From: Alphaproteobacteria bacterium
Lineage (GTDB): Bacteria > Pseudomonadota > Alphaproteobacteria > UBA828
DNA length: 64,000 nt
Direction of reading: 5' to 3'
Assembly (NCBI GenBank): GCA_965220745.1
Contig: CBDCQT010000003.1
Coordinates: 32,001 to 96,000, forward strand
Shown here piece by piece: positions 3,698 through 28,764 of the stretch. The position numbers were made by a program, and so were the translations under genes. How positions within the stretch are numbered: position 1 is the first letter of the stretch; each line of letters opens with the position of its first letter. Under the pieces are notes generated by a model. The model worked only from the letters and a program-made list of their open reading frames with translations, was not told where the DNA came from and did not search any database.

Positions 3698-3728
3698 GCG
3701 CCACGTTCCGCTCGAGACAGACGATTAG

Positions 3729-3877: not shown

Positions 3878-4074
3878 CTAGTTCTCACCGAGAGTTCGGG
3901 TCGTTCTGGCGCTCGATAAACGCCTACATCTCCGCAAACTTGCATCCGGAATCGGAATGCGCCGCGGAGAACGGCACACGATCGAAAAGACGTTGCGACA
4001 GCGCCAATCCATTACGTCTGAGAAATAGTCGAGCAACCAGTGACCTGCCCCCGTCGACTGGTCCAAGTCGAATG

Positions 4075-4980
4075 TTAGTGCATTGCGGGTTTGCCGGCCA
4101 AGCTGGGTGACCGGCGGAGCGTAGCGGAGCCGGGCGGCCAGCTTGGCATGATGATCGTCTCCGGGGCCGGCGGCCGGTATCCCAGGCTGCTGTGTGGGCG
4201 CACGGCGTTGTAATGGCACCGCCACGATTCGATGAGAACCTGGGCTTCCTTCAGGGTGTAGAAGATCTCCCCGTTCAGGAGCTCGTCGCGCAGCCGCGCA
4301 TTGAAGCTCTCGATGTAGCCGTTCTCCCAGGGTGAGCCCGGCTCGATGAAGGCGGTGCGGGCGCTGACCGCAGCGATCCACCGCCTGACGGCCTCGGCGA
4401 CGAACTCCGGACCGTTGTCGGAACGGATCCAGGTCGGAATGCCGCGCAGGATGAACAGGTCGGTCAGCACATCGATGACGTCGATCGAGGAAAGCCTCCT
4501 GCGCACCCGGATGACCAGGCTCTCGCGGGTGAACTCGTCCAGGACGTTGAGCATGCGGAAGGCCCTGCCGTCATACGTCCGGTGATGGACGAAGTCGTAG
4601 GACCAGACGTGATCCGCCCTCTCGGCGCGCAGCCGGATGCAGGAGCCGTCATTGAGCCAAAGCCGGCCCCGCTTCGGTTGCTTGCCGGGCACCTTCAGCC
4701 CCTCGCGCCGCCACAAGCGCTCGATCCGCTTGTCGTTGACCTGCCAGCCGGCATCGCGAAGCAGGGCCGCGATGCGGCGATAGCCGTAACGGCCGTACTG
4801 GCGGGCCAGCTCGATCATGTACGCGACCAGGCGGTCCTCGTCGTCGCGGCCGCGCGGGATGCGGCGCTGGGTCGAGCGGTGCTGCCCCAGCACCCGGCAA
4901 GCGCGGCGTTCCGAGACCCCGAGCCGGTCACAGACATGATCGATGCACTGGCGCCGGCGCGAGGGGCTTAGAAGTTTCCC
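4075..4980 (-). CDS. IS3 transposase OrfB (DDE integrase core), reached by -1 frameshift
   Basis: WSYDF, IRSDNGPEF, NGYIESFN. The -1 frame is open from slippery G-GGA-AAC (4980-4974) and reads GKLLSPSRRRQCIDH. Confidence 0.92.
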   Translation of the reverse strand, partial: GKLLSPSRRRQCIDHVCDRLGVSERRACRVLGQHRSTQRRIPRGRDDEDRLVAYMIELARQYGRYGYRRIAALLRDAGWQVNDKRIERLWRREGLKVPGKQPKRGRLWLNDGSCIRLRAERADHVWSYDFVHHRTYDGRAFRMLNVLDEFTRESLVIRVRRRLSSIDVIDVLTDLFILRGIPTWIRSDNGPEFVAEAVRRWIAAVSARTAFIEPGSPWENGYIESFNARLRDELLNGEIFYTLKEAQVLIESWRCHYNAVRPHSSLGYRPPAPETIIMPSWPPGSATLRRSPSLAGKPAMH

Positions 4981-5246
4981 CCTGCGGCCTCTTTGAGAAT
5001 CTGCTTGTCCAGCGTCAGATCGGAGACCGCACGGCGCAGCCGCTCGTTCTCCTTCTCGAGCTCCTTCAAACGGCGGAGCTGATCGCCGCTCATCCCGGCA
5101 TACTCCTTGCGCCAGCGGTAGAAGGTAACCTCGCTGATCCCAAGCTCGCGGATCGCGTCCGCCATCGACATGCCCTGGCCGTTCAGAACCTCAGCCCGCC
5201 GCAGCAGGTTCACGATTTCCTCAGGCTTGTAACGCTTCCTTGCCAT
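4968..5246 (-). CDS. IS3 transposase OrfA (HTH)
   Basis: MARKRYKPEEI, LGISEVTFYRWRKEY, LKELEKENERLRR; AGAGGAGG RBS upstream. Confidence 0.93.
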   Translation of the reverse strand: MARKRYKPEEIVNLLRRAEVLNGQGMSMADAIRELGISEVTFYRWRKEYAGMSGDQLRRLKELEKENERLRRAVSDLTLDKQILKEAAGGNF

Positions 5247-10103: not shown

Positions 10104-11384
10104 TCACGGCTCGGGGTAGGCGTCGAAGGCGATGCCGATGCGCTCGCCCGGTCCCTTGAAGGGCAGCGTCCCGTGAAAGACGTAAGACGGGAAGAGTAGT
10201 GCGGTGCCGGCGCGCGGCGGGAGGCTGACGCAACGGAACGTGCTGCCTTCGGGCAGGTCGTGGTCGGGACGGCCGAACTCGAGCCAACCGCCGTGGTCTT
10301 CGCTCTCGGCACCGATCTGCGGGGGCACCGCGACGTAATAGACCCCGCTCAGCCACGCGCTCTCGTGAATATGCGGCGGGTGCCGCCCGCCGGCCGTCAG
10401 GATCGAGGCGATCAGCGTCAGGCGATAGCGCCGGGGGATACGTGCGAGAAAGGGGCTCTCGGGGTCCGCCGTCAGCGTCTCCCGGTAGGCGTCGATGGCG
10501 GCGCGCAGTGCGCGCTCCAGGCCGCGGATGGGTGGGCTCGGCGCCGCCAGCATGTCCTGGGTCACCGCGCCATTGCGGGTCACGCGGTTGGGCGGCTCCC
10601 AGACCAGGGAGGGCGCCTCGCGAACGGCGGTTGCCAGCGCTTCGTTGAAGGTTTCGATGTCGCCGCTGCCGAGCGGAGGCGTGAGGGAGACCCGCGTCAC
10701 GAAGCGGTCGAAGTCGTAGAGGTTGCTGCCGGCCTCACTTTCGCCCCCGATCTGTTCGGCGAGCGCGCGGGTCGCCAGCGCGTTCTGGCAGAAGGGGTCG
10801 ATGGCGAGCGCGGTGGCACAGGCGGCCAGCGCACGATCCACCGCGCCGAGGGCGAGATGAGTCCGCGCCAGCCGGTGGTGCGCCTGCAGATCGTAAGGGT
10901 CGAGGGCAATGGCCTTGCGGTAGGCCGTTGCAGCCTCCTCGCCCATGCCGGCCGCGCTGAGCGCGTTACCAAGATTGGTATGGGCGTTGGCGTAGTCGGG
11001 GCGGAGCGCGACGGCGCGTTCCAGCACGTCGCGGGCCTCGGCGGTCTGTCCGGTCTCGAGCAGGAGGATGCCGAGGCTGTTGTGCGCCTCGGCGTAGGTG
11101 GGCGCCACCTCGGTCGCCTGGCGCAGCAGTACGGCCGCCTCGTCGAAGCGACTGCAGCGGTAGCGGGCGACGCCGGCATAGTGGAGGACGCTGGGATCGG
11201 CCGCCCCATCCCCCGCCAGCAGCTTCGAGAGGAGCTGGTCCGCCCTCTGTGGGCGGCCTTCCTTCATGTGGCGCGCGGCGCGGGCGAGGACGTCCCCGTG
11301 CGCGACACCCTTGGCGCCCGCGCGGGGACCGGCGGTGCCGGCCGCCGACTGCCGCGACTGCCGTCGTCTCGCCCGTCGGTTCAT
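10104..11384 (-). CDS. TPR-repeat protein with C-terminal putative 2OG-Fe(II) oxygenase domain
   Basis: TPR repeats (AEAHNSLG, ANAHTNLGNAL), then HPPHIH...WLSGVYY, LFPSYVFHGT, ERIGIAFD. Confidence 0.85.
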   Translation of the reverse strand: MNRRARRRQSRQSAAGTAGPRAGAKGVAHGDVLARAARHMKEGRPQRADQLLSKLLAGDGAADPSVLHYAGVARYRCSRFDEAAVLLRQATEVAPTYAEAHNSLGILLLETGQTAEARDVLERAVALRPDYANAHTNLGNALSAAGMGEEAATAYRKAIALDPYDLQAHHRLARTHLALGAVDRALAACATALAIDPFCQNALATRALAEQIGGESEAGSNLYDFDRFVTRVSLTPPLGSGDIETFNEALATAVREAPSLVWEPPNRVTRNGAVTQDMLAAPSPPIRGLERALRAAIDAYRETLTADPESPFLARIPRRYRLTLIASILTAGGRHPPHIHESAWLSGVYYVAVPPQIGAESEDHGGWLEFGRPDHDLPEGSTFRCVSLPPRAGTALLFPSYVFHGTLPFKGPGERIGIAFDAYPEP

Positions 11385-11884: not shown

Positions 11885-13228
11885 ATGCGTGTCAACCGAC
11901 GTACCATCCTCAAGGGAGCGTTGGCGGGAACTGCCGGTGTCGCGGCTGCATTCCCCCACATCTACATCAAGGACTTCGGGCAGGCCTGGGGCGCGAAGCC
12001 CTGGATCTACGAAGACGAGCCCATCAAGGTCGGCATGCTCTGGTCGCAGACCGGCAACCTCTCGGTTGTCGAGAACGATTCGACCCAGGTCTCGCTCTAC
12101 GCGGTCGACGAGATCAACGCGGCAGGCGGCATCGCCGGCAAGATGGTCGAGCCGGTGGTGGTCGACGCCAAGTCCGACATCAAGGTCTATTCGGAGAAGA
12201 TCACGCAGCTCATTCTGAGAGACCGCGTGGTGTCGGTGCACGGCAGCTACACCTCGGCGAGCCGCCGTGCGGTCATGCCGATCGTGATGAAGTGGGACCA
12301 CCTTTACTACTACCCGACCTGCTACGAAGGCCGGGAGTGCATGCAGAACATCATCAACACCGGGCCGCTCGCCAATCAGCACTCGTATGACCTGGTTCCG
12401 TTCATGGTGGAGAACTTCGGCCCCAAGACCTATCTGGTCGGCTCCAACTACATCTGGCCGAAAGAGTCCAACAAGAACGTCAAGGTCTGGCTTGAGCGGG
12501 CCGGCGGCGAGGTGCTGGGCGAGGACTACATCCCCCTCGGCGGCTCCGAGTTCGCGCCGGTCTTCAACAAGATTCGCCAGCAGCAGCCGGACTGGATCAT
12601 GTCGACGGTGGTCGGCGATTCCGATATCGCGCTGCACCGGCAGTTCCTGCAAGAAGGCTTCAAGTCCGACAAGACGCCGATCGCATCGCTTACCACCGGT
12701 GAGATCGAGACCCGCGCCATGGGCAACGAGGCCGGCGCCGGTCACTTCCTGTCTGCACCTTACTTCCAGACCCTGCAGAACCCGACCAACGAGAAGTTTG
12801 TGGAGGGTTATCTCTCGAGCCAGTACGGCGGCGGGGGCGTCACCCACTACAACATGGAAGAGACCTATCTCGGGATCTACGTGTGGAAGAAGGGTGTCGA
12901 GCGCGCCCTCGAGGAGACCGGCGGCGACTGGGAAGCCATCACGCCGCGCATGATCCGCGACGTCAGCGGTAACTGGCGCGACCAGGGCCCGGTGACGCTG
13001 AGCGACGAGGAGAGCCCGGAGGGCAAGGTCTGGATCGATCCGGACAACTTCAACATCTGGCTCAAGCCCAAGATCGGCCAGTGCGGTGCGGACGGTCAGT
13101 TCACCATCGTGCGCCAGGCCGACGAGCACGTCGGGCCGGATCCCTTCGCGATCTATCCCGAGCGCGGCGTCTGCAAGGCCGACGGCCTGCACCGGCCCGA
13201 CGGGACGGTTCAGAAGGACGTTCTGTAA
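11885..13228 (+). CDS. Urea/short-chain amide ABC transporter substrate-binding protein (UrtA/FmdD/AmiC family), Tat-exported
   Basis: NRRTILKG Tat motif, IKVGMLWSQTG, GSYTSASRRAV, YPTCYEG, VGSNYIWP. Confidence 0.88.
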   Translation: MRVNRRTILKGALAGTAGVAAAFPHIYIKDFGQAWGAKPWIYEDEPIKVGMLWSQTGNLSVVENDSTQVSLYAVDEINAAGGIAGKMVEPVVVDAKSDIKVYSEKITQLILRDRVVSVHGSYTSASRRAVMPIVMKWDHLYYYPTCYEGRECMQNIINTGPLANQHSYDLVPFMVENFGPKTYLVGSNYIWPKESNKNVKVWLERAGGEVLGEDYIPLGGSEFAPVFNKIRQQQPDWIMSTVVGDSDIALHRQFLQEGFKSDKTPIASLTTGEIETRAMGNEAGAGHFLSAPYFQTLQNPTNEKFVEGYLSSQYGGGGVTHYNMEETYLGIYVWKKGVERALEETGGDWEAITPRMIRDVSGNWRDQGPVTLSDEESPEGKVWIDPDNFNIWLKPKIGQCGADGQFTIVRQADEHVGPDPFAIYPERGVCKADGLHRPDGTVQKDVL

Positions 13229-13252
13229 GACACCTGTTTGATCTGGTAGTGT

Positions 13253-13281
13253 CGGGGCGGAGGGGCAGTTCCTCCGCCCCG
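13253..13281 (+). terminator. GC-rich hairpin after the binding-protein gene (partial terminator or mRNA stabiliser)
   Basis: CGGGGCGGAGG-ggcagtt-CCTCCGCCCCG. Confidence 0.5.
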
Positions 13282-13388
13282 CCGCTCCCCGGCGGGGGAG
13301 GAAGGCGGCGGCCGGCTGACTTCACGGGCACGCACTTGCGGGGCACTGTCGGCAAGACCGCAACAGGGAGAGAGGCGAGACTCAATTC

Positions 13389-14291
13389 ATGAGCGTCCAC
13401 GATTTCTGGACACCCTTCGCCGCAGAACCGTTCATTAATGCGCTGATTATCGGGCTCAGCCTGGCCAGCATCTGGCTGGTCGCGGCGCTGGGCCTGACCA
13501 TCATTTACGGCACCATGGGCGTCATCAACATGGCCCATGGCGAGTTCATCATGCTGGGGGCCTACTTCACCTGGATGATGCAGTATTTCGGCGGGTTCCC
13601 CTGGCTGCTCTGCCTGCCGATCTCCTTCGTGCTTGTCGGCTTCATCGGATGGTTGGTCGAACGCGGCCTCATACGACACTTGTACGACCGACCATTGGAC
13701 ACGCTCCTCGCGACATGGGGCGTGTCCTTGGTCTTCATCCAGAGCATCCGGCTGATCTTCGGCGGCGAGCCGCAATACGTCGAGGTGCCCGACTGGCTGA
13801 CCAGCGTGATGACGATCGACTTCGTCCACGTGCCGTGGATCAGGATCTTCATCTTCTTCGCGGCGCTGGCGCTGGTCGCCATGACCTGGGCAATCCTGTT
13901 CAAGACCAATATCGGCATCCAGGTTCGCGCCGTCATGCAGAACCCGCAGATGGCGGCGTCGTTCGGCATCAATTCGAGCCGGGTGTACGGCCTCACCTTC
14001 GCCTATGGGGCGGGCCTCGCGGGAATCTCGGGCTCCATGTTCGCGGGCCTGAAGACGATCTTCCCGGACATGGGGCTGGGCTACGTGGTCGAGGCCTTCC
14101 TGGTGGTGGTGACGGGCGGCGGCGAGCTATTCGGCAGCCTGGCGACAGCCGGCATCATGGGCGAGATGTTCTCGATCTTCTCCTACTTCACGAACGACAC
14201 CTTCGCCCGCTTCGTGCTGTTCATCCTGATCGTGATCTTCCTGCGCTTCCGTCCGCAGGGGATCTTTGCGCCCAGCATGGCGCGGCGCTAG
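13389..14291 (+). CDS. Amide/urea ABC transporter permease (UrtB-like)
   Basis: GVINMAHGEFIMLGAY, LYDRPLDTLLATWG, RPQGIF. Confidence 0.9.
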   Translation: MSVHDFWTPFAAEPFINALIIGLSLASIWLVAALGLTIIYGTMGVINMAHGEFIMLGAYFTWMMQYFGGFPWLLCLPISFVLVGFIGWLVERGLIRHLYDRPLDTLLATWGVSLVFIQSIRLIFGGEPQYVEVPDWLTSVMTIDFVHVPWIRIFIFFAALALVAMTWAILFKTNIGIQVRAVMQNPQMAASFGINSSRVYGLTFAYGAGLAGISGSMFAGLKTIFPDMGLGYVVEAFLVVVTGGGELFGSLATAGIMGEMFSIFSYFTNDTFARFVLFILIVIFLRFRPQGIFAPSMARR

Positions 14292-14297
14292 GGCAGG

Positions 14298-15449
14298 GTG
14301 AACGTCATGTTGTTGGAAAGGTTGAAACTGGAGCCAACGGGGCAGCGGCAGAACCTCTATCACGACAAGCGCGCGCAGTGGGCGATGTACGTCGTCGCCT
14401 TCGGCGCGCTCGCCACCATCCCCGTGTTCATGGGCGACGACCCCTTTGCGCTCAACCAGTTCGCGCGCTACGGCGTCTTCGGCATGCTGGCGCTTTCGGT
14501 GAGCCTGGTGTGGGGCTTTGGCGGCATCCTCAGCCTGGGCCAGGGAATCGCCTTCGGCATGGCGGCCTACGGCATGGGCGCCACCATGCAGATGCAGTAC
14601 CAGGATCCGGAATACGACCCGATCCCGAGCTTCATGCTGACCAACGAGCTGGAGGAGCTGCCCACGGTCTGGGAGCCCTTCTGGCATACCGAAGTCGGGC
14701 TGATCCTAGCGCTCGGAATCCCGACGCTCTTCTTCATCATCTTCGGCTTCCTGATGTTCCAGGCGCGCCTGGCCGGCGCCTTCGTCGCCATCATGACGCT
14801 CGCCATGCTCGGCGCCTGGTACAACATGGCCTACGACATGCAGCCGTTCACGGCGGGCTTCAACGGTATCTCGCCGCCCAGTTCGTTCCAGGCGTTCGGC
14901 GTCGATGTGGACCCCTACAGCAGCATGATCTACTGGGTGGCGCTCGGTGTTCTGGCCGCGCTGACGCTCGGGACCAAGGCACTGCTTGCGAGCAAATTCG
15001 GCACCATAATTCAGGCGATACGCGACGACCCCGAACGCGCGCGTTTCCTCGGCTACAACGTCGCCTTCTATCAGGTGACGGTGTTCACGATTTCCGGCCT
15101 CATCGCCGCGATCGCGGGCATCGTTTGGGTGATGATCGTCCAGTACGTCTCGCCGACGTCGCTGGAGATCTTCTTCAGCATCACCATGGTAATCTGGGCC
15201 GCTGTCGGCGGCAGGCTCTCGCTGTTCGGCGCGATCTTCGGCGCCATCTTCATCAACACGATCCAGAGTTACGTGGGCGACGAGTTCCAGGCCGCCTGGT
15301 TCGTGATCCTCGGCACGATCTTCATCGTCGTCGTCCGCTTCCTACCGAAGGGAATTGCCGGCCTGTTCGAAATGATCATCGGCCTCGTCCCCTATCGCGG
15401 CCGCGCGCCGGTTCAGCCGACCCTCGGCCCCCGGCGGGCATCGGACTAG
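14298..15449 (+). CDS. Amide/urea ABC transporter permease (UrtC-like)
   Basis: LVWGFGGILSLGQG, AIRDDPERARFLGY, VIWAAVGGR; start may be ATG 14307. Confidence 0.9.
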   Translation: MNVMLLERLKLEPTGQRQNLYHDKRAQWAMYVVAFGALATIPVFMGDDPFALNQFARYGVFGMLALSVSLVWGFGGILSLGQGIAFGMAAYGMGATMQMQYQDPEYDPIPSFMLTNELEELPTVWEPFWHTEVGLILALGIPTLFFIIFGFLMFQARLAGAFVAIMTLAMLGAWYNMAYDMQPFTAGFNGISPPSSFQAFGVDVDPYSSMIYWVALGVLAALTLGTKALLASKFGTIIQAIRDDPERARFLGYNVAFYQVTVFTISGLIAAIAGIVWVMIVQYVSPTSLEIFFSITMVIWAAVGGRLSLFGAIFGAIFINTIQSYVGDEFQAAWFVILGTIFIVVVRFLPKGIAGLFEMIIGLVPYRGRAPVQPTLGPRRASD

Positions 15450-15461
15450 GAGGACGCGGGC

Positions 15462-16217
15462 GTGAGCGCGATTCTGGAAGTCACGGAGGTGACCAAGGCC
15501 TACGACGAGTACAAGGTCGTCGACAGCTTCAGCTTCCAGGTCGATGAGGGCGAGCTGCGCTGCCTGCTCGGGCCGAACGGTGCGGGCAAAACCACGACGA
15601 TGGACCTGATCACCGGCCGTCAGAAGGTGACGGCGGGCAAGATCATGTTCCAGGGCCGCGAAATCACGGGCCTGCCGGAGCACCGGATCGTGAAGCACGG
15701 GATCGGCCGCAAGTTCCAGGTGCCGGCGGTGTTCAGGGACCTCACCGTGCGCGAGAACCTGCAGGTCGCCAACAGCCGAAACACCAATCCCTTCATCAAC
15801 ATGATCACGTTCCGCCAGCGGGCGGGGCGCGACAAGCTGGACGAGATCGTCGAGCTTGTCGGGCTCCAGGAACGGCTGGACGAGCTCGGCGGCAATCTCA
15901 GCCACGGCGAGACCCAGTGGCTCGAGATCGGCATGGTGCTCACCCAGGATCCCAAGCTCCTGCTCATGGACGAGCCCACCGCCGGCATGACCGAGCAGGA
16001 GACCCACCGCACCTCCGAAATCTTCAACCGTCTGAAGGGCACGCGAACTCTCGTCGTGGTCGAGCACGACATGGCGTTCGTGCGCGAGATCGCCGACATC
16101 ATCACGCTCATGCATCTGGGCAAGACACTGGCAGAGGGCCCCATGCATGAGGTGGAGAACGATCCAAGGGTGCGCGAGGTCTATCTCGGCGCCGAGGGCA
16201 TCAGCGATGCTGCTTGA
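15462..16217 (+). CDS. Amide/urea ABC transporter ATPase (UrtD-like)
   Basis: GPNGAGKTT, GIGRKFQVP, LSHGETQWLEIGM. Confidence 0.9.
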   Translation: MSAILEVTEVTKAYDEYKVVDSFSFQVDEGELRCLLGPNGAGKTTTMDLITGRQKVTAGKIMFQGREITGLPEHRIVKHGIGRKFQVPAVFRDLTVRENLQVANSRNTNPFINMITFRQRAGRDKLDEIVELVGLQERLDELGGNLSHGETQWLEIGMVLTQDPKLLLMDEPTAGMTEQETHRTSEIFNRLKGTRTLVVVEHDMAFVREIADIITLMHLGKTLAEGPMHEVENDPRVREVYLGAEGISDAA

Positions 16218-16905
16218 GCTGGAAGGCGTCACATCCTTCTACGGCAAGACGCCGATCCTGCAGAACGTGAGCCTGGGCGTTGCCCACGGCCACTGCATGG
16301 CGGTGCTGGGGCGGAACGGCGTCGGCAAGACGACGCTGGTGCGCACCATCATGGGGCTGACCACGCGCATGACTGGCACGCTCAGGATTGCCGGCGAGGA
16401 CGCGAGCGACATGCCCACGCACCAGCGCTCCGAGATCGGCATCGGCTACATCCCGCAGGGGCGCGGCATCCTGCCCAAGTTCTCGGTGCGGGAGAACATC
16501 CTGCTCGGGACCTTCGCCCGCAACGACAAGCGGCGGAAGATCCCCGACATGTGCCTCGACCTCTTTCCTTATCTGGCTGAGAACCTGGACAAGCGGGCGG
16601 GGCAGCTCTCGGGCGGTCAGCAGCAGCAGCTCGCGATCTCGCGCGCGCTCGCGACCGATCCGAAGATCCTGCTGCTCGATGAGCCGACGGAAGGCATCCA
16701 GCCCAACATCGTGCAGGAGCTCGAAGCCACGATCATGCGGCTCAACACCGAAGTCGGGCTCACGCTCGTGCTCACGGAGCAGCACATCAAGGTTGCGCGC
16801 GAGCTTTCGCACGAGTTCGTCATCATGGACAACGGTCTGGTCGTCGAGGGTGGCCCCATTGACGCATTGACCGACGAGGTCGTCGACAAGTACCTGACGA
16901 TCTAG
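16207..16905 (+). CDS. Amide/urea ABC transporter ATPase (UrtE-like)
   Basis: GRNGVGKTT, YIPQGR, LSGGQQQQLAI, DEPTEGIQP; ATG 16207. Confidence 0.9.
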   Translation: MLLELEGVTSFYGKTPILQNVSLGVAHGHCMAVLGRNGVGKTTLVRTIMGLTTRMTGTLRIAGEDASDMPTHQRSEIGIGYIPQGRGILPKFSVRENILLGTFARNDKRRKIPDMCLDLFPYLAENLDKRAGQLSGGQQQQLAISRALATDPKILLLDEPTEGIQPNIVQELEATIMRLNTEVGLTLVLTEQHIKVARELSHEFVIMDNGLVVEGGPIDALTDEVVDKYLTI

Positions 16906-16947
16906 GCATACGAGGGCCGAGGCAGCAGACGCGAGGGGGGACCCAGA

Positions 16948-17388
16948 ATGATCCGTATTCCGCCAAAAGGCAGTCCCGATCGGGATCGTCTCATCGAGGA
17001 GCACAAGGCGTGCATCGAGTCCATGAAGGGCGTTGCCGGCTGCTCGATCCTGCGCTGCGCGACACCGGGCGACACCACCGAGGTCAGCGGCGGCATTCAC
17101 GAGGACTTCCAACTCAACCGCGTGCTGCTGCGGATGCGGGCCCAGCCGGCGAAGGGCAAGCTCGTGGTGGTCTGCACCAAGATCGAGAAGGAGTGGCGCA
17201 TCGCGCGGTGCTCCGGCATCCGCGGCGTGCCGCCGGAGTTCGTCTCCGACAAGGTGTACGACAACGAGCAGGACCCGCAGCACGACATCTTCCTGATGCG
17301 GCTCGACGAGTTCCCGGAGACCGACGGCTTCCCCGAGCATTTCCACCAGGGTTGGAAGCGCCGGGACGACAATTGGGCCGCGTCCTAG
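16948..17388 (+). CDS. N,N-dimethylformamidase small subunit-like protein
   Basis: IEEH...LNRVLLRMRAQPAKGK...WRIA...PPEF...QHDIFLMRL parallels the DMFase small subunit as I recall it (VEEH..LQRV...RMQPTFGK..YRIA..HAVFLRRI). Lies directly upstream of the large subunit. Confidence 0.7.
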   Translation: MIRIPPKGSPDRDRLIEEHKACIESMKGVAGCSILRCATPGDTTEVSGGIHEDFQLNRVLLRMRAQPAKGKLVVVCTKIEKEWRIARCSGIRGVPPEFVSDKVYDNEQDPQHDIFLMRLDEFPETDGFPEHFHQGWKRRDDNWAAS

Positions 17389-17487
17389 GGCGCGGGCCTA
17401 AGCGATCATTCCGGGGTTCCACGCGGTAACCGATCAGGACGCGCGAGCGGCCGCCAGGGCCCGCGCGATTTAGGGGAGAGACACCCG

Positions 17488-19893
17488 ATGGCTTGGATGA
17501 GACTGACGGGATATGCGGACAAGTTCGGCGTCCATCCCGGCGACACGATCCGCTTCTATGTGAATTGCGACGGGCCGAAGTCCTACGACGCCCAGCTCGT
17601 GAAGATGATCAACGGCGACACCAACCCGCGCGGGCCGGGCCTGATCGAGCGCAAGAGGCGGGCGTCGCTCAACGGCAGCTACAAGGGCCGCCGTCAGGTC
17701 ATCCACAGCGGCTCCTACGGCTGCGTGGAGGACAATTCGCAGCTCCGCGTGCAGAGCTTCACGCTGCAATGCTGGGTCTGGCCAACGACGCCGAAAACTC
17801 ATCCCAAGTACTGGAAGCACGGCGCCCAGGGCCTGGTCACCAAGTGGCACAGGAACAAGGGCTACGGCCTCTTCATCAACGAGGACGGCTGCGCCGAGCT
17901 CCGCATCAACGGCAAGAAGGTCACGACCGGCGCGCCGCTGCGCGACCATGCCTGGCACTTCCTCGCCGCGACCTACAACGCCGAGACCGGTCAGGCGATC
18001 CTCTATCACGAGCCGCAGGTGGTCTACGCCCTCGACCCGGTGATCAGGCCCGCGAAGGAAAAGATCGAAGGGCCGGTCAGGCATGACGCGAGCCCGGCGG
18101 TGATCGCCGGCTACACCGGCGCACACAGCAACGATCCTACGGCGCAGTCGTCGGTGCCGGCGGGCATCATCATCAACGGCCACTACAACGGGAAGATCGA
18201 CGGCCCCCGGATCTGCAATCGCGCGCTAAGCCGGGAAGAGATCGAGACCATGAAGCTCGGCGCCCAGCGCGGCATGACCGAGCGGCGCAACTCCGGCCCC
18301 ACCGGCGCGCTCTCCGAGACCATCGTCGCCGCCTGGGACTTCTCCGACGGCATCAACACCATCGTCGGCAAGGACCACGGGCCGTACTTGCTCGATGCGC
18401 AGATCGTCAACTGCCCAACCCGCGCCATGACCGGCCACAACTTCTCGGGCAACAACTTCGACTGGAAGCATGCGCCGCAAGAGTATGGCGCAATCCACTT
18501 CCATGACGACGACGTGGACGATGCACGCTGGGAGGTCGACTTCGAGTGGACCGTGCCGGCGAACTACGAGAGTGATTCCTATTGCGTCAAGCTCACCACG
18601 GACGAGGGCGACGAGGACTACATCCCCTTCTTCGTCGTGCCGCGCCCAGGCGAGGAGCAGGCCAAGATCGCGGTGATGATGCCGACGATCAGCTACATGG
18701 CCTACGCCAACGAGCATCTCGCCAACAACGCCGGCGGTGCGGAGCTGCTGGTCTATCGCGTGCCGATCATGCAGCACCAGAACATGTTCCTGGCCGAGCA
18801 CCGCGAGTACGGCGGCTCGATCTACGACACCCACACGGACGGCAGCGGCCTCTGCCTCTCGTCGAGGCTCAGGCCGATCCTCAGCATCCGGCCGCAGTAC
18901 GATCACTTCCTGATGCAGGCGCCCTGGCAATACCCGGCCGACCTGCATCTGATCTATTGGCTCAACCAGCTGGGCTACAAGTACGACGTCATCACCGACG
19001 AGGATGTGAACTACGACGGCCTCGCGCGGCTGGAAAACTACAACGTCGTGATCACGGGCTCGCATCCGGAGCACAACTCCGGGCCGCAGCTCGACGCGAT
19101 CCACGACTACACCCAGCGCGGCGGCCGCTTCATGTACATGGGCGCGGACGGCTTCTACTGGATCCATTCCTACCATCCGGCCTACGACCATCTCGGGCGC
19201 GGCATCATCACCGAGATGCGCCGATGCGAATCCGGCATCCGGACCTGGCGGGCGGACCCCGGCGAGTACTATCACCAGTCCACCGGCGAGCTCGGCGGCA
19301 TGTGGCGCTATCGTGGGCGCTACCTGCACTCGATCGCCGGCACCGGCATGTCGTCCGAAGGCTTCGATATTTCGAGCTACTACTCGCGCACGCCGGAGAG
19401 TAACGATCCGCGCGTCTCGTGGGCCTACGAGGGTATCGACTACGACGAGAAGATCGGCAACTTCGGCCTAGTCGGCGGCGGTGCCGCCGGCACGGAGCTC
19501 GACATCGTCGACACCCTGCTCGGCTCGCCGCCGCACACGCTGATCACCGCGACCTCGGCGGGCCGCCATACCGAGGGCTATCTGCTGGTGATGGAGGACT
19601 TCGGCTTCAACCAGCAGGGCCTCGACGGCACCCAGCACCCGCGCGTGCGCTCGGACATCGCCTATCACGAAACGCCCAACGGCGGCGCGTGCTTCGCGTT
19701 CAGCTCGATCGCGTTCTGCGGGTCGCTACCGTGGAACAACGGCGATCCCGAGAAGAACAACATCTCGCGGCTGGTGAAGAACGTGCTCGACCGCTTCTCG
19801 CAGGACGGCCCGCTACCGCCGCCGCCGCGCAGCGCGATCAAGCATCGCGGCCGCGCCGATTACGACCCGCCGCTCAACAAGAAGCGGAAGTAG
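17488..19893 (+). CDS. N,N-dimethylformamidase large subunit family amidohydrolase
   Basis: LamG-like N-terminal region (SFTLQCWVWP, WHFLAATY, YNGKIDGP), EYGAIHFHDDD, SYMAYANEH, SIYDTHTDG, SSRLRP, TGSHPE, GGGAAGTELD. Confidence 0.88.
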   Translation: MAWMRLTGYADKFGVHPGDTIRFYVNCDGPKSYDAQLVKMINGDTNPRGPGLIERKRRASLNGSYKGRRQVIHSGSYGCVEDNSQLRVQSFTLQCWVWPTTPKTHPKYWKHGAQGLVTKWHRNKGYGLFINEDGCAELRINGKKVTTGAPLRDHAWHFLAATYNAETGQAILYHEPQVVYALDPVIRPAKEKIEGPVRHDASPAVIAGYTGAHSNDPTAQSSVPAGIIINGHYNGKIDGPRICNRALSREEIETMKLGAQRGMTERRNSGPTGALSETIVAAWDFSDGINTIVGKDHGPYLLDAQIVNCPTRAMTGHNFSGNNFDWKHAPQEYGAIHFHDDDVDDARWEVDFEWTVPANYESDSYCVKLTTDEGDEDYIPFFVVPRPGEEQAKIAVMMPTISYMAYANEHLANNAGGAELLVYRVPIMQHQNMFLAEHREYGGSIYDTHTDGSGLCLSSRLRPILSIRPQYDHFLMQAPWQYPADLHLIYWLNQLGYKYDVITDEDVNYDGLARLENYNVVITGSHPEHNSGPQLDAIHDYTQRGGRFMYMGADGFYWIHSYHPAYDHLGRGIITEMRRCESGIRTWRADPGEYYHQSTGELGGMWRYRGRYLHSIAGTGMSSEGFDISSYYSRTPESNDPRVSWAYEGIDYDEKIGNFGLVGGGAAGTELDIVDTLLGSPPHTLITATSAGRHTEGYLLVMEDFGFNQQGLDGTQHPRVRSDIAYHETPNGGACFAFSSIAFCGSLPWNNGDPEKNNISRLVKNVLDRFSQDGPLPPPPRSAIKHRGRADYDPPLNKKRK

Positions 19894-19910
19894 GGGGTCG
19901 CCGCAGGCAC

Positions 19911-19941
19911 GGACGGGGCGGGTGGTGCACCCGCCCCATCC
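19911..19941 (+). terminator. Hairpin between the DMFase-like large subunit and Rieske-like genes
   Basis: GGACGGGGCGGGTG-gtg-CACCCGCCCCATCC; no U-tract. Confidence 0.4.
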
Positions 19942-19965
19942 CAGCGCGGCCGAGGGTCTGGCCCG

Positions 19966-21084
19966 ATGACGATGCGGCCCGATCTCGACTACGTGGACGA
20001 GGGCGTCGATCTTCAGGATCCCGCTCTCTACAAGCCGTCGCGCGGGCGTTTCGGCAAGGCGAGCATCCTCACGCCCATCGCCTACCGCTCCAAGGTCTTC
20101 GCCGACCTGGAGGACGAGAAGATCTGGACCCGGAGCTGGGTCTGCATCGGCGCGCAGCGCGATATTCCCAACGTCGGCGACCTGCTGCCCTATACGGTGG
20201 GCAACCACGGCGTTCACGTGCAGCGCGGCGATGATGGGCTGGTCGGGCGCTACAATCTGGCGCAGCACGGCGGCTGCCGCTTCGTGCCGGCGCAGTGCCA
20301 GACCGGCTCCAAGACCAGGTGCTCGTTCACCTCATGCGGCTACAGCCGCGATCGCGGGGTGATCGCCGCTGACGAGCTCGGCGACAACACGCCGACGATG
20401 CGCCAGTATCTCGGCTACCGGCCCGAGCGCCTGCTGCCGGTATCGGTGGAGAGCGAGGGGCCGCTCCTTTTCGTCAATCTCGATCCCGAGGCCGCACCGC
20501 TCGCCGAGCGATTCGATGGCGTGGCCGAGGCGCTCGATCTCGACGCCGCTGCGGACTGGGAGACTGCCGGGAGCTTCCGGGTCGAGTACGAAGCGAACTG
20601 GAAGCTGCTCGGCCGCGCGCTGCTCCGTTCGCTTGCGCCCGAGGCCAAGGCCGTGAAGAAGAGTGGCGACGCCATCGCGCTCAAGGCGGGCATCGATTAT
20701 TCCGACGCGCCGGCGACGGTCTTCTGGCTCTTGCCGAACCTGATCCTGCTGCGCGCCGAAGACCTCTTGGTGAGCATTGTGCTGCAGCCTACCGCGCTGG
20801 AGGAGACATTGGCCCGCGTCAGGATCAGCGCGGCACGGCCGATCGAGGCCGCGAGTGTCGAGACGTTGCGTGTGGCCCTCGACGAGGCCGGTGGCGAGGC
20901 GGCGACCCAGCAGGAGGAGCTGGCGCGGTTCGGGACGCCTTCCCGGCCGCAGACGCGTCTCGACGCGCTCCCGCTCGAAGAGGACCGCGCCGCCCACCTG
21001 CTCCAGGCCTACGTGATCGGGCGGCTGCTGAAGCGCCACGAGGTTCACCAGGCGGGCCCGCTCTACGTCGCCGCCGTGCGCTGA
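19966..21084 (+). CDS. Ring-hydroxylating (Rieske) oxygenase alpha-subunit-like protein with non-canonical metal ligands
   Basis: Family landmarks E.EKIW.RSWVCIG...IP..GD, LLPV.VE..GPLLFVNLDP, ANWKL, W.LPNL are present. The Rieske segment reads NLAQHGGCRFVPAQCQTGSKTRCSFTSCGY. Confidence 0.75.
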   Translation: MTMRPDLDYVDEGVDLQDPALYKPSRGRFGKASILTPIAYRSKVFADLEDEKIWTRSWVCIGAQRDIPNVGDLLPYTVGNHGVHVQRGDDGLVGRYNLAQHGGCRFVPAQCQTGSKTRCSFTSCGYSRDRGVIAADELGDNTPTMRQYLGYRPERLLPVSVESEGPLLFVNLDPEAAPLAERFDGVAEALDLDAAADWETAGSFRVEYEANWKLLGRALLRSLAPEAKAVKKSGDAIALKAGIDYSDAPATVFWLLPNLILLRAEDLLVSIVLQPTALEETLARVRISAARPIEAASVETLRVALDEAGGEAATQQEELARFGTPSRPQTRLDALPLEEDRAAHLLQAYVIGRLLKRHEVHQAGPLYVAAVR

Positions 21085-21389
21085 TGGTCTTCAGCGTCCA
21101 GCAGATCAAGTACGAGATCCTCGCCTACATCAAGGAGTGCGGCGGGGAGTTCGGCGACTACTACGTCGGGATCGCGGCGGACCCGAAGAAGACCCTCTTC
21201 GACGTCCACAAGGTGGACAAGGACGCCGACCCCTGGCTCTACAAGCAGGCGCTCACCTTCTACGCGGCGCAGACGGTTCAGGACTACTTCCTGCGCAGGC
21301 TGAAGGCCGACGGCGAGCCGGTGTACGACGGCGACGAAGATACGGACTGCGTCTATGTCTACAAGAAGAGCGAGCGGACCGTCCCGTAA
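21084..21389 (+). CDS. Hypothetical protein (101 aa)
   Basis: TGATG stop/start coupling with the upstream gene; strong GC3 codon bias; YYVGI...H and VYVYKK. Confidence 0.8.
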   Translation: MVFSVQQIKYEILAYIKECGGEFGDYYVGIAADPKKTLFDVHKVDKDADPWLYKQALTFYAAQTVQDYFLRRLKADGEPVYDGDEDTDCVYVYKKSERTVP

Positions 21390-22116
21390 GGCGCGACGCC
21401 CGGCGAAGTCCCGAGATGACGGAACGCGGGCGGCGCGGGCGCGCCAGGAGGACGCCGCCATCGAGGAGGGGCGGCGCGCCTACATGGCCCGCGACTTCGA
21501 GCGGGCGCGGGCGCTCTGGCTGCCGCTGGCCGAGGCCGGCAATGCCGAGGCGCAGGCCTGGGTCGGCTCGCTCTACGCCAACGGCGACGGCGTCGAGGCC
21601 GACGCGGCGGCGGCGTTCGCCTGGTACCTCAAGTCGGCCGAGGGCGGGAACGTGCTGGCCCAGAGCAACGTCGGCGCGATGTACGCCATGGGCAGCGGCG
21701 TCGCCCAGGACATGGCGGAGGCGGTGCGCTGGCTGCGGCGTGCGGCCCGCGGCGGCGATGCCAACGCCCGCTTCAATCTTGGCGTGCTCTACAGCCAGGG
21801 CAACGGCGTGCCGCAGAACCACGCCCGCGCCGCCGAGTGGTACCGCAAGGCGGCGGAGACGGGGCACTACCAGTCCCAGGCGCGTCTCGGCCACATGTAC
21901 CTGGCGGGCGAGGGCGTGAAGAGGGACCGCGTTCAGGCCTTCCTGTGGCTCTCGCTTGCCGCCCGGCACGGCATCGGCTCCGCCCTCACCGCCCTGGAAG
22001 CGGTGGTCAAGGAGATGTCGTCGGACGAGAAGGCGCAAGGCATGCGCCTCGTCGCCCAGTGGCGCGGCAAGGCCGATAGTGACGCCGACGTGCTCATCGA
22101 CCCGGTGCCCGTATAA
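21355..22116 (+). CDS. Sel1-like repeat protein
   Basis: Four Sel1 repeats (e.g. ARFNLGVLYSQGNGVPQNHARAAEWYRKAAETG); start uncertain. Confidence 0.88.
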   Translation: MSTRRASGPSRKARRPAKSRDDGTRAARARQEDAAIEEGRRAYMARDFERARALWLPLAEAGNAEAQAWVGSLYANGDGVEADAAAAFAWYLKSAEGGNVLAQSNVGAMYAMGSGVAQDMAEAVRWLRRAARGGDANARFNLGVLYSQGNGVPQNHARAAEWYRKAAETGHYQSQARLGHMYLAGEGVKRDRVQAFLWLSLAARHGIGSALTALEAVVKEMSSDEKAQGMRLVAQWRGKADSDADVLIDPVPV

Positions 22117-22126: not shown

Positions 22127-22615
22127 TCACCCGGTCGGTGCCGGGGGCGCGCAGGCGAAGCGGTCGATCACCCCTGTCTTGTCGTTCACCTTGATCTCGA
22201 AGGACGCCTCGGTGAGCTCGCTCCAGAGGTCCGACTCCTCGGTCGGGCAGGCGTTGTGCAGCCCGATCTCGCCGGGACGCGCGGCTTCGCCGTGGCGTGC
22301 CGAGCGGATGCCGGGGGAGAAGTAGACCTCCACCTCGACCACGCCCGTAGCGGCCCGCACGGTGTCGCCGACCTCCCAGCCGGCCGGCAGATCGTGGGAG
22401 CGGTAATAGCTCTTGATCCGGCGCACGGAGTCTTCGGGATCGACGGTCTCTTCGGCCCCAGGTGCTGCGGCGTGTTGCTCCGCTCCGGTATTGCCGCGGC
22501 GCAACTGCTGCCCGGTCTCGTAGACGATCACAAACAGCAGAAGTATCCCGACGATGATGCCGTAGCGAAGCCATCGCCGCTTCGATGGCACTCCGGTCTT
22601 GCGGCGTCGCGCCAC
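22127..22615 (-). CDS. Hypothetical membrane-anchored protein
   Basis: Basic N-terminus, TM helix YGIIVGILLLFVIVY, soluble domain with two Cys. Confidence 0.6.
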   Translation of the reverse strand: MARRRKTGVPSKRRWLRYGIIVGILLLFVIVYETGQQLRRGNTGAEQHAAAPGAEETVDPEDSVRRIKSYYRSHDLPAGWEVGDTVRAATGVVEVEVYFSPGIRSARHGEAARPGEIGLHNACPTEESDLWSELTEASFEIKVNDKTGVIDRFACAPPAPTG

Positions 22616-22691
22616 GATGTTTCCGTCGCTTTCGAGTAAGATCGCCGTCTCTCAGGCGCAGGATACCGATCGCGGTCAAGGGAGTGAAACG

Positions 22692-22967
22692 ATGCCGATC
22701 CCGCGGAACATTCAGGAGGAGCTGGAGAAGAGGGACGAGCTGATCCTGGCTCTGGAAATGATGGTCGTCGATCAGGCCTGCCGCCTGCTCGCCGCGGAGG
22801 CGGTGCTGCGCGAGCTCGTCCCGGCCAAGCGGAAGCCCTCGCAGGAGAAGATCGAGGCCCACATCGCCGAGGCCGCCGAGCGCTTCCGCCAGCGCTTCGA
22901 GGGCGAAAGCGTCGCGGGGTTCACCGATCGCGCAAAGCGCATTGCAGCCGAATTGGTCGGGCGATAG
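22692..22967 (+). CDS. Hypothetical helical protein (91 aa)
   Basis: AAGGGAG RBS before ATG 22692; host-like codon usage. Confidence 0.65.
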   Translation: MPIPRNIQEELEKRDELILALEMMVVDQACRLLAAEAVLRELVPAKRKPSQEKIEAHIAEAAERFRQRFEGESVAGFTDRAKRIAAELVGR

Positions 22968-26930: not shown

Positions 26931-27094
26931 CGTGCCGCGCTATACCGGGCGCGCTTCTGGGCCGGGCAGGTCATCCGGCGAGTTCGAAGAGATAGGCGTC
27001 AAGAATGGCCCATCAAGAGTACACTGCTCCCGCAGGGCGGGGCCTCGACGATGGAGGCGGGCAAGTGGACACTCAGCGCACCATGCAGGACGGC

Positions 27095-28153
27095 ATGCTC
27101 AAGTCAGCGCGGGTCTCCAACTATCGCGTTCTTGACGAGCTCTCCATCGATCACTTGAGTCGCGTCAATCTGATCGCGGGTCGCAACAATGCGGGAAAGA
27201 CGAGTCTGCTCGAAGCACTTTTCTTGTTGTCGGGGGCCGGTAATCCCCAGATGGCACTCAACTCGAACGTTATTCGTATGCCGGACTTGCCAATGTCTGG
27301 AACGCCGGAAATTTTGCGTGAAACTTACTGGAAGCCGATGTTCACCAAGCTCGATACCGATAGAGTCATCGAAATTGAGGGTGTGCACGCTATACGAGGC
27401 CCTCTAAACCTTCGGATGTTGCTGGAGCGGCCAACCGTCGTCGAGCTTCCTCTTGGAGACTCGAAAGAAATTTCGGCAAAGGACCTACACGGCGAACCAC
27501 CTTTTTTGCTTTCCTATAGAGGAGGCCCCGAGCCAGAGGTAGAGGGTCGTGTCAGGTATGCCGGACAGTCTATTCAGATTGACCAGCCCAACGTACCGGT
27601 GCCGTTTGATGCCGTGATTTTGCCGACGCAAGTTGTGAACCAACCGGATAATGCGGAACGCCTGAGCCGACTCAGGAAGCGTAAGCAGGATGCGCAGCTC
27701 TTCGCTGCCTTGAGGATAATCGAGCCGAGGCTGCAAAGCATCGAAGTCAATTCCGCAAGCGGCTTCCCCATGATATGGGGCGATATCGGCCTGCCCGAAC
27801 TCGTACCCTTAGCGATGATGGGTGAGGGCATGACCCGGCTCGCCCGGCTTGTATTGGCTATCGCGACCGTGCCGAGTGGCCTTGTGCTGGTGGACGAGAT
27901 TGAGACTGGCCTGCATCACACCGTCATGGGCGACGTTTGGCGTGCAATCGACGAGGCGGCAAAGCAGTTCGACACGCAGGTCGTCGCGACGACCCACAGT
28001 TACGAGTGCATTCGGGCTGCCCATGAGGCTCTCGGTAGTGGCGACGGTTTTCTACTTCACCGCTTGGAAGCTTCCGACGCGGGCAACCGCTGTGTTACGT
28101 ACCAGCCCGAGTCCATCGACGCTGCGATGCGCCATGACCTGGAGGTTCGTTGA
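27095..28153 (+). CDS. ABC-type ATPase (AAA_15/AAA_21-like)
   Basis: NYR, NLIAGRNNAGKTS (Walker A), MGEGM (signature), VLVDEIETGLH (Walker B), ATTHS; more A/T-ending codons than the flanks. Confidence 0.88.
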   Translation: MLKSARVSNYRVLDELSIDHLSRVNLIAGRNNAGKTSLLEALFLLSGAGNPQMALNSNVIRMPDLPMSGTPEILRETYWKPMFTKLDTDRVIEIEGVHAIRGPLNLRMLLERPTVVELPLGDSKEISAKDLHGEPPFLLSYRGGPEPEVEGRVRYAGQSIQIDQPNVPVPFDAVILPTQVVNQPDNAERLSRLRKRKQDAQLFAALRIIEPRLQSIEVNSASGFPMIWGDIGLPELVPLAMMGEGMTRLARLVLAIATVPSGLVLVDEIETGLHHTVMGDVWRAIDEAAKQFDTQVVATTHSYECIRAAHEALGSGDGFLLHRLEASDAGNRCVTYQPESIDAAMRHDLEVR

Positions 28154-28155
28154 GT

Positions 28156-28764
28156 ATGGCGCAGCCGACGCCGATTAGTAAGTCGATTCAACTTCTTGTT
28201 GAAGGAAAGGATCAACTGAATTTCTTTGAAGCGTTCATCCGACGTGTAGAGATCGAAAACGAGCTGCAGGTCCAAGATTTCGGTGGCGTTAGCGAGTTGC
28301 GGGGTTTCTTGCGCGCACTCGTCGATGCTCCAGGGTTCAATACGGTCGTCAGTGTGGGGATTATTCGCGACGCCGAGGAGAGTGCGGCGGGAGCGCGCCG
28401 AAGCGTTGAGAACTCGTTGCGGAATGCGGGACTTCCCGCGCCCGAAGACGCAAACGGCGGCGACGGACCGGCGGTACAATTGCTGATCTTGCCGGGAGGT
28501 AAGGAAGAACGAGGCATGCTGGAGACGCTTCTGTGTCGAAGTGTCGCGGATGAGCCCGTGAACGACTGCATTGATGATTTCTTTGGGTGCGCTGAAGCCA
28601 TGCTGGGCGTCGACATCCGTCGACCCGACAAGGCGCGCGCCCAAGCTTATCTGGCTACGCGGCCGGAGCCGCAAGTATCAGTCGGCGTGGCGGCACAGAA
28701 GGGCTATTGGCCACTGGATCACGGGGCTTTCGCTGAGGTGCGTGAATTCCTTGCGACGCTGTAG
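28156..28764 (+). CDS. TOPRIM-fold protein (DUF3226-like)
   Basis: LLVEGKDQ (TOPRIM Glu), GIIRDAEE (DxD-like), GMLETL, KGYW; adjacent to the ATPase stop. Confidence 0.72.
   Translation: MAQPTPISKSIQLLVEGKDQLNFFEAFIRRVEIENELQVQDFGGVSELRGFLRALVDAPGFNTVVSVGIIRDAEESAAGARRSVENSLRNAGLPAPEDANGGDGPAVQLLILPGGKEERGMLETLLCRSVADEPVNDCIDDFFGCAEAMLGVDIRRPDKARAQAYLATRPEPQVSVGVAAQKGYWPLDHGAFAEVREFLATL

What the first reader, a model, noticed from the sequence alone, without database searches (positions are those of the whole stretch)
11885..22116. Candidate undescribed amide-catabolism system: Urt-type ABC + DMFase-like subunits + rewired Rieske protein + two accessory genes
Seen: ten co-oriented, closely spaced genes, with overlaps at urtD/E, Rieske/101-aa (TGATG) and 101-aa/Sel1. 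No urease, formamidase or AmiR gene is in the window. Established: Paracoccus DMFase is a small+large subunit amidohydrolase with mononuclear Fe bound by two Tyr and a Glu beside an active-site His. Plausible equivalents are here (SYMAYANEH, SIYDTH, SHPE, GTELD). Inference: the transporter imports the substrate of a DMFase-family enzyme, probably a natural N-substituted amide or formamide and not the solvent DMF. The three downstream genes may be maturation, redox or regulatory factors; I know of no such factors described for this family.
Basis: partly seen in the sequence, partly recalled or inferred. Interest (0 to 1): 0.85.

Follow-up and report, generated by a model that had tools for sequence, protein, structure and literature searches.

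The report
Methylamine-linked iron amidase gene cluster
This conserved ten-gene bacterial cluster pairs a small-amide importer with an iron amidase related to the solvent-degrading enzyme DMFase; it travels with methylamine-use genes and an altered second urease, so it likely releases methylamine from a natural N-methylated urea, a reaction with no known enzyme in the papers searched.

Summary
The ten genes are real and conserved across Alpha-, Beta- and Gammaproteobacteria (large subunit in 77, Rieske-like in 76, Sel1 in 75 of 80 loci). The scan found this module before in other genomes.

The enzyme is a separate DMFase-family clade. It keeps the iron ligands, but catalytic Asn547 is Asp in 79 of 79 rows. 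Its Paracoccus aminophilus orthologue is reported as unlinked to DMF growth. The binding protein has lost UrtA's contacts to one urea nitrogen.

New here: 46 of 50 cluster genomes carry the methylamine enzyme GmaS (background 65 of 401). 48 of 50 carry a divergent second urease (background 13 of 401). In 24 of 50, one of these lies within 25 kb. Dimethylamine monooxygenase is present in only 11 of 50.

The likely product is methylamine and the best substrate class is an N-methylated urea; N-methylformamide is the main rival. The Rieske-like protein has lost both oxygenase metal sites, has four near-invariant cysteines and occurs only beside this clade, so it is a likely metal-site maturation factor (untested). 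Sel1 and the 101-aa gene are not universal.

The parts
11885..13228 (+). Tat-signal periplasmic binding protein, Urt/AmiC family, amide-type (not urea-type) pocket
   Evidence: PF13433; TIGR03407 311.9 bits, below its cut-off of 492.75. Against Prochlorococcus UrtA: W120 to Y122, Q144 to C146, F192 to W191, N246 to V243, S274 to T270; S122, Y141, E146 and Y190 kept.
13389..14291 (+). UrtB-type permease
   Evidence: TIGR03409 over cut-off
14298..15449 (+). UrtC-type permease
   Evidence: TIGR03408 over cut-off
15462..16217 (+). UrtD-type ATPase
   Evidence: TIGR03411 over cut-off
16207..16905 (+). UrtE-type ATPase
   Evidence: TIGR03410 at cut-off, 286 vs 285.8
16948..17388 (+). DMFase-like small subunit, 146 aa
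   Evidence: Only PDB hit is the DMFase small subunit 6lvb_B, E 0.058; 71% to pAMI5 dmfA1-like gene; 71 of 80 loci
17488..19893 (+). DMFase-family large subunit, 801 aa; Y406/Y446/E528 iron ligands, H526, E670; Asp554 in place of Asn547
   Evidence: PF20254; 6lvb E 9e-158; residue tallies; separate clade, SH-aLRT 100
19911..19941 (+). GC-rich hairpin without U-tract; possible partial terminator or mRNA stabiliser
   Evidence: bridged by contigs of relatives in 2 of 4 RNA runs
19966..21084 (+). Rieske-oxygenase-derived protein, 372 aa, both oxygenase metal sites lost, C104-x6-C111-x7-C119-x4-C124 plus H84
   Evidence: Carnitine monooxygenase hit E 4e-10; H84, C111, C119, C124 in 103 of 103 family rows, C104 in 102, H101 in 80
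21084..21389 (+). Conserved 101-aa protein of no known family
   Evidence: 123 homologues; model pLDDT 90; no fold match; weak GIY-YIG hint
21355..22116 (+). Sel1-repeat protein
   Evidence: PF08238; 75 of 80 loci; absent on pAMI5

Best explanation
The cluster encodes an Urt-type importer and a two-subunit DMFase-family enzyme with intact iron ligands, which likely import and hydrolyse a small N-methylated urea (N-methylurea as first candidate, a dimethylurea second) to release methylamine, which would then enter the N-methylglutamate pathway through GmaS. Shown: gene content, conservation, the active-site and pocket residues, and co-occurrence with gmaS and a divergent urease. Inferred: (1) the binding protein holds the carbonyl and one NH2 as UrtA does (S124, Y189, main chain), while V243/C146 make room for methyl on the other nitrogen; (2) Fe(III) acts as Lewis acid with H526/E670 as in DMFase, and Asp554 in place of Asn547 would accept a urea N-H; (3) the carbamate product would decay to ammonia (or methylamine) and CO2; (4) the four-cysteine Rieske-derived protein is likely a metal-binding maturation or activation factor for this clade, made in smaller amounts behind the hairpin, with the 101-aa and Sel1 proteins as optional helpers.
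For: GmaS (TIGR03105) is over cut-off in 46 of 50 cluster genomes, plus 2 cut by contig ends. Background: 65 of 401 class-sample genomes; 29 of 55 genomes with other DMFase paralogues only; 31 of 341 with none. gmaS lies within 25 kb of the 101-aa gene in 19 of 50. Eight of 12 flanks fetched from other genomes show mgs/gmaS genes beside the cluster, most with mgd and XRE-cupin genes. A divergent urease (73% or more to L141) is in 48 of 50 against 13 of 401; all 13 have gmaS and they include all 5 cluster genomes of that sample. It is within 25 kb in 16 of 50. DmmC (PF11927) is in only 11 of 50. On pAMI5 an AmiS/UreI channel stands in for the ABC importer. Pocket residues. Asp554 in 79 of 79 clade rows, Asn in 32 of 34 others. 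The pAMI5 orthologue is reported as not linked to DMF use (PMC4543880). Mono- and dimethylurea are proposed products of methylxanthine breakdown (PMC4408171).
Against: No activity, ligand or mutant data. Pocket reading rests on alignment, not on a structure. 1,3-dimethylurea would need room at the Ser124 side, which is unchanged. 1,1-dimethylurea fits the pocket but gives dimethylamine, and DmmC is mostly missing (dimethylamine dehydrogenase was not tested). If the second urease already hydrolyses methylurea, the two enzymes would be redundant. Its own binding proteins have Tyr/Phe where this one has Cys146, which suggests different ligands. Paracoccus DMFase does not hydrolyse urea and is most efficient on N-methylformamide (PMC7686228). 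Other DMFase paralogues are also enriched with gmaS (29 of 55), and Asp also occurs in 2 paralogues outside the clade. The 50 genomes include many kin and were picked by me from 80 loci. In this genome gmaS is 25 kb and the second urease about 82 kb away.
Confidence: 0.45

Rival explanations
1. The substrate is N-methylformamide (or N-methylacetamide), hydrolysed to methylamine plus formate (acetate): the natural version of the DMFase reaction.
For: Paracoccus DMFase has its highest catalytic efficiency on N-methylformamide (PMC7686228 Table 1). Explains gmaS linkage and purU/folD neighbours in 8-9 of 80 loci. Pocket is AmiC-like. F693 is kept as F707 in 78 of 79 rows. A biogenic source from methylhistidine breakdown is recalled, not found in the library.
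Against: Does not explain Asn547 to Asp, nor 48 of 50 co-occurrence with the altered urease. The retained Ser124/main-chain site suggests a primary NH2.
Confidence: 0.22
2. Two-step path: the iron enzyme removes a formyl or acyl group from an N-acyl-N-methylurea, and the divergent urease then splits the methylurea to methylamine, ammonia and CO2.
For: Nested pattern in one sample: gmaS 65, urease-like 13, cluster 5 of 401. The urease-like operon follows the cluster closely in several loci (3-8 kb from the 101-aa gene in 7 of 50). Both UrtA contacts to one nitrogen are lost, as expected for a doubly substituted nitrogen. Deformylation is DMFase chemistry.
Against: I know no abundant natural N-acyl-N-methylurea. 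No P. aminophilus plasmid copy of the urease-like gene was among the top hits; its chromosome was not searched.
Confidence: 0.12
3. The substrate is a plain short amide (formamide, acetamide) and the cluster simply sits in nitrogen-scavenging islands with methylamine and urease genes.
For: AmiC-like pocket; AmiE amidase in 7 and AmiR/AmiC genes in several neighbouring loci; DMFase hydrolyses formamide slowly.
Against: gmaS is in 46-48 of 50 genomes even where not adjacent; simpler amidases already exist in these genomes.
Confidence: 0.1
4. The enzyme is oxidative: with the four-cysteine protein as electron carrier it demethylates 1,1-dimethylurea to methylurea and formaldehyde, upstream of the second urease.
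For: Would explain the pocket, the lack of DmmC, the nesting with the urease, the THF genes and a Cys-rich partner derived from amine N-demethylase-type oxygenases.
Against: No reductase in the cluster. The hydrolytic residues H526 and E670 are invariant. A two-tyrosine Fe(III) site is poorly suited to reductive O2 activation (general knowledge).
Confidence: 0.06
5. It is an ordinary DMFase acting on DMF.
For: Database names; 39% identity to pAMI2 DMFase.
Against: Separate clade; Asn547 is essential in DMFase and is Asp here; a P. aminophilus strain without pAMI2 could not use DMF.
Confidence: 0.03

Closest known systems
N,N-dimethylformamidase DmfA1A2, Paracoccus sp. DMF (PDB 6LVB; PMC7686228) and P. 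aminophilus pAMI2
   Same: Small plus large subunit; Y/Y/E iron ligands, His, Glu base and pocket Phe conserved.
   Different: 39% identity to pAMI2, separate clade; Asn547 is Asp. pAMI2 has only dmfR-dmfA1-dmfA2 and no Rieske-like gene; recombinant DMFase works in E. coli.
P. aminophilus pAMI5 dmfA1-dmfA2-like locus (JCM7686_pAMI5p063-064; PMC4543880)
   Same: True orthologue, 71%; followed by the Rieske-like and 101-aa genes.
   Different: Noted in print only as not linked to DMF use; has an AmiS/UreI channel and a sensor kinase module, no Sel1, no ABC importer.
N-acetyl-(R)-beta-phenylalanine acylase (PDB 8HUY)
   Same: Same family and metal-ligand motifs.
   Different: More distant (E 3e-112), keeps Asn, large aromatic substrate.
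UrtABCDE urea importer (PDB 8HIC; PMC10392092) and P. aeruginosa AmiC (PDB 1PEA)
   Same: Five-gene layout; UrtB-E over NCBIfam cut-offs; carbonyl-binding Ser and Tyr kept.
   Different: Asn246, Gln144 and Trp120, needed for urea binding, are Val, Cys and Tyr; closer to AmiC at these sites.
Carnitine and glycine-betaine Rieske monooxygenases (CntA 6Y9C, GbcA)
   Same: Sequence likeness over residues 38-215.
   Different: First Cys and second His of the Rieske motif lost, first His dispensable, no mononuclear iron ligands, four-Cys motif instead, no reductase gene.

Membership tests
DMFase family | Large subunit with DMFA2_C domain | tested here: met
   PF20254 296 bits; 6lvb E 9e-158
DMFase family | Small subunit gene in front | tested here: met
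   6lvb_B weak, E 0.058; 71% to pAMI5 dmfA1-like
DMFase family | 2-Tyr-1-carboxylate ligands, His519, Glu657 | tested here: met
   Y406, Y446, E528, H526, E670 in 79 of 79 clade rows
DMFase (EC 3.5.1.56) proper | Catalytic Asn547 | tested here: not met
   Asp554 in 79 of 79 rows
DMFase (EC 3.5.1.56) proper | Orthology with pAMI2 DmfA2 | tested here: not met
   21-row clade, SH-aLRT 100, stem 0.93; pAMI2 enzyme lies in another branch; quick tree, no bootstrap
DMFase (EC 3.5.1.56) proper | Hydrolyses DMF | not testable with these tools
   Orthologue reported as not linked to DMF use
Urea-specific UrtA | TIGR03407 cut-off and urea pocket W120/Q144/N246 | tested here: not met
Urt-type ABC importer | UrtB, C, D, E profiles | tested here: met
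Rieske oxygenase alpha subunit | CxH...CxxH cluster motif | tested here: not met
Rieske oxygenase alpha subunit | 2-His-1-carboxylate iron site | tested here: not met
   No conserved His in the catalytic-domain region of 76 rows
Rieske oxygenase alpha subunit | Overall fold | tested here: inconclusive
   Sequence hits E 4e-10; model pLDDT 83.7 but the Cys loop is under 50; fold search could not be run
GIY-YIG nuclease (101-aa protein) | Profile or fold match | tested here: inconclusive
   Atlas feature score 0.95 to a cluster with 14% PF01541; no GIY-YIG among Pfam hits of 45 members; best VIA Z 4.0, unrelated
Sel1-repeat proteins | PF08238 repeats | tested here: met
   Four stretches, E 9e-38

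The most novel reading that the evidence does not exclude
The cluster is one arm of an undescribed methylated-urea catabolic network: an iron DMFase-fold ureahydrolase with its own four-cysteine, Rieske-derived maturase, working beside or upstream of a nickel 'methylurease', both feeding methylamine to the N-methylglutamate pathway in soil, freshwater and marine Proteobacteria.
Probability: 0.4. Interest if true: 0.85.

Novelty: new variant of a known kind. Interest (0 to 1): 0.68.

Why it matters
DMFase-family genes are widespread and are read as solvent-degradation markers, but their natural substrates are largely unknown. This clade gives a short, testable substrate list and a cultured host that already carries it (P. 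aminophilus). The fate of mono- and dimethylurea from methylated purines is described as poorly understood. An enzyme for them would add a route from organic nitrogen to methylamine and ammonium, and would correct many 'DMFase', 'urea transporter', 'dioxygenase' and 'urease' annotations. A Rieske oxygenase scaffold rebuilt around four cysteines would be a new kind of accessory metalloprotein.

Tried and rejected
Complex prediction (large subunit + Rieske-like + 101-aa) was not available: queue full, no result. Fold search of the Rieske-like model could not be run. The 101-aa protein gave no PDB sequence hit under E 1.6, no Foldseek hit, best VIA Z 4.0 with TusA/SirA-like rows at 3.5-3.6, treated as noise. 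No sigma-70 promoter and no terminator at the hairpin in the consensus scan. R. palustris RPA1250 binds urea (PMC3223731, passages), but I could not show it is this protein's orthologue, so it is not used. PF11927 gave nothing in the own genome, but the controls were also silent. The piperine hydrolase paper (PMC12753220, passages) concerns another family. Parts of the cluster without RNA contig cover are not evidence. Methylguanidine as substrate was considered and ranked low: the pocket keeps donors for a carbonyl oxygen. A frameshift at the Sel1 start was considered and dropped: the frame is open in relatives. Alignment A4 was too divergent for a contig scan; A5 gave only 2 loci. Literature searches finding no description of the cluster: (0 papers; 0), 99, 105, 125, 142, listings only unless named; most subscription journals are not held, and PMC6544821 and a periplasmic urea-binding protein paper were not held.
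Full report
1. Observation. The ten ORFs, overlaps and motifs are as described. The window is G000:C3:32001-96000. The closest named relatives are uncultured Alphaproteobacteria. UrtB-E reach their NCBIfam cut-offs; the binding protein does not. The large ORF matches DMFase 6LVB at E 9e-158, the small ORF only weakly. The genome holds six further large-subunit paralogues at 42-50%.

2. Conservation. An alignment of the 101-aa protein retrieved 80 loci (the best 80 of 110 relatives) from Alpha-, Beta- and Gammaproteobacteria, including Rhodopseudomonas, Bradyrhizobium, Hansschlegelia and Pseudomonas bohemica. Within 10 kb, the large subunit (70% or more) is in 77, the small in 71, the Rieske-like in 76, Sel1 in 75 and the binding protein in 60 of 80. 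Most gaps are contig or locus ends; Hansschlegelia lacks the adjacent importer. The 101-aa and Sel1 genes swap order, and in Betaproteobacteria the 101-aa gene sits divergently upstream. This set is biased towards the 101-aa gene. An unbiased sample of 401 class genomes gave 5 orthologues (80% or more, then a gap to 50%). The Rieske-like family was found in exactly those 5, each directly downstream (only 4 candidates per genome were scored). None of 32 paralogue loci (1.5 kb flanks) had the Rieske-like or 101-aa gene; one had a canonical Rieske gene. Two distant metagenome loci keep large subunit then Rieske-like, without the 101-aa gene. P. aminophilus pAMI5 carries small, large, Rieske-like, 101-aa and an AmiS/UreI channel, with no Sel1. 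The core is therefore small + large + Rieske-like.

3. The enzyme. In a quick maximum-likelihood tree of 46 of 113 aligned sequences, the clade has SH-aLRT 100 and a long stem; pAMI2 DMFase falls elsewhere. Y406, Y446, H526, E528 and E670 are invariant. Position 554 is Asp in 79 of 79 clade rows (these include duplicates and close kin) and Asn in 32 of 34 others. In DMFase N547A is inactive, urea is not a substrate, and N-methylformamide has the best catalytic efficiency (PMC7686228, whole text). PMC4543880 (passages) reports that a strain without pAMI2 could not use DMF and that the pAMI5 genes have not been linked to DMF use.

4. The binding protein. PMC10392092 (passages) lists S122, Q144, Y190, N246 and W120 as needed for urea binding. 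Here S124 and Y189 are kept, while N246 is Val (55 of 57, Ile in 2), Q144 is Cys (57 of 57) and W120 is Tyr (56 of 57). The same sites resemble AmiC (its acetamide binding is recalled). The inference is a ligand with a carbonyl, probably one free NH2, and a small non-polar group on the other side. A paralogue with the same YPTCYEG pocket precedes a sensor kinase beside the cluster in about 11 of 80 loci.

5. The methylamine link. I searched 50 of the 80 source genomes, chosen by me for spread and longer contigs. GmaS is over cut-off in 46, and 2 more are cut by contig ends. Background is 65 of 401; 29 of 55 paralogue-only genomes and 31 of 341 without any DMFase-like hit. gmaS is within 25 kb of the 101-aa gene in 19 of 50. 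Of 12 flanks fetched from other genomes, mostly chosen because gmaS was near, 8 show mgs/gmaS genes beside the cluster, most with mgdABCD-like and XRE-cupin genes, and some purU/folD, an amine oxidase, Tmm/Tdm or a UT urea channel. In G000, gmaS lies 25 kb upstream, outside the window. DmmC is in only 11 of 50, which favours monomethylamine as product. Kin are not independent, many genomes are incomplete, and four of the five class-sample cluster genomes appear also among the 50.

6. The second urease. A divergent urease alpha subunit occurs in 48 of 50, usually beside a canonical one, against 13 of 401. All 13 have gmaS and all 5 cluster genomes are among them. It keeps the nickel-ligand motifs but has Gly for the Ala of SDSQAMGR and a three-residue deletion in the loop after GGGTGP. 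These match by alignment the region of Ala366 and Ala170, which hold urea's nitrogens (PMC7433671, passages). It or gmaS lies within 25 kb of the cluster in 24 of 50. Where it has its own importer, that binding protein has Tyr/Phe at position 146. On Aminobacter pAA01 it follows allantoin genes. An earlier scan note judged a gmaS-urease pairing a deletion accident; these counts argue for a wider functional link, though not for a substrate.

7. Accessory genes. Among 150 representatives returned, 103 rows cover the motif and lack the canonical Rieske pattern. H84, C111, C119 and C124 are in all 103, C104 in 102 and H101 in 80. No catalytic-domain His is conserved. The model is confident except in the Cys loop, as might be expected for a metal-ordered loop. 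No signal peptide is evident in the sequence, so metal binding is more likely than disulphides (inference). A hairpin follows the large subunit in the window and, by eye, in most of about 70 spacers listed, without a shuffle control. Contigs of relatives about 95% identical bridge it in 2 of 4 RNA runs from two studies; DNA carry-over was not controlled, so this is weak. The 101-aa protein has a confident model and no match.

8. Mechanism and odds. Methylamine as direct or next product: about 0.8. Direct hydrolysis of an N-methylated urea 0.45 (N-methylurea about 0.25, dimethylureas about 0.2); N-methylformamide or N-methylacetamide 0.22; acyl-methylurea upstream of the second urease 0.12; plain amide 0.10; oxidative demethylation 0.06; DMF 0.03. 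Mono- and dimethylurea are proposed end products of caffeine C-8 oxidation, a step called poorly understood (PMC4408171, passages). Wider sources from methylated purines are my inference.

9. Novelty. It works like DMFase and belongs to its Pfam family, but it is not DMFase proper. The searches named under Tried and rejected found no description of the cluster beyond the pAMI5 remark. This scan has reported the module in at least five other genomes; the short notes shown there do not mention the GmaS and second-urease counts. Verdict: real, conserved, uncharacterised; a new variant of a known kind with a now narrow substrate list.

Noticed in passing
G000:C3:136125-137834, C7:255480-257186, C12:393999-395696: Three urease alpha genes, all with altered pocket loops relative to canonical urease; the C7 and C12 types are further divergent clades of unknown substrate.
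   Followed up: partly
L002-L007: Six more DMFase-family large subunits in this genome; two have a recognisable small subunit; L004 (and L110) also has Asp at the Asn547 site.
   Followed up: partly
L162, L166, L167, L172, L178: Divergent-urease operons with their own Urt importer (pocket YPT[YF]YEG), AmiC/AmiR and often AmiE plus an AAA/VWA-like pair: a candidate methylurea system in its own right.
   Followed up: partly
L055, L058, L060-L064, L066, L067, L078, L132, L139: Second binding protein with the same pocket in front of a hybrid sensor kinase beside the cluster.
   Followed up: partly
window 22127-22615 (-) and 22644-22967 (+): Two small unknown genes follow the cluster in 21 of 80 loci, all Alphaproteobacteria-type relatives; no useful Pfam hit.
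   Followed up: no
window 10104-11384 (-): TPR plus putative 2OG-Fe(II) oxygenase gene divergent from the cluster.
   Followed up: no
window 27005-28761: Low-GC AAA_21/AAA_15 ATPase and partner gene between secG-like and pyrG-like genes, a possible defence or toxin-antitoxin insert.
   Followed up: no
window about 2350-5000: ORF fragments that look like an insertion-sequence remnant (by eye).
   Followed up: no
L076: Cluster genes broken by many frameshifts, probably assembly error; left out of alignments.
   Followed up: no
L044, L046, L047, L080, L135: A second, Asn-type DMFase-like pair lies close to the cluster.
   Followed up: no
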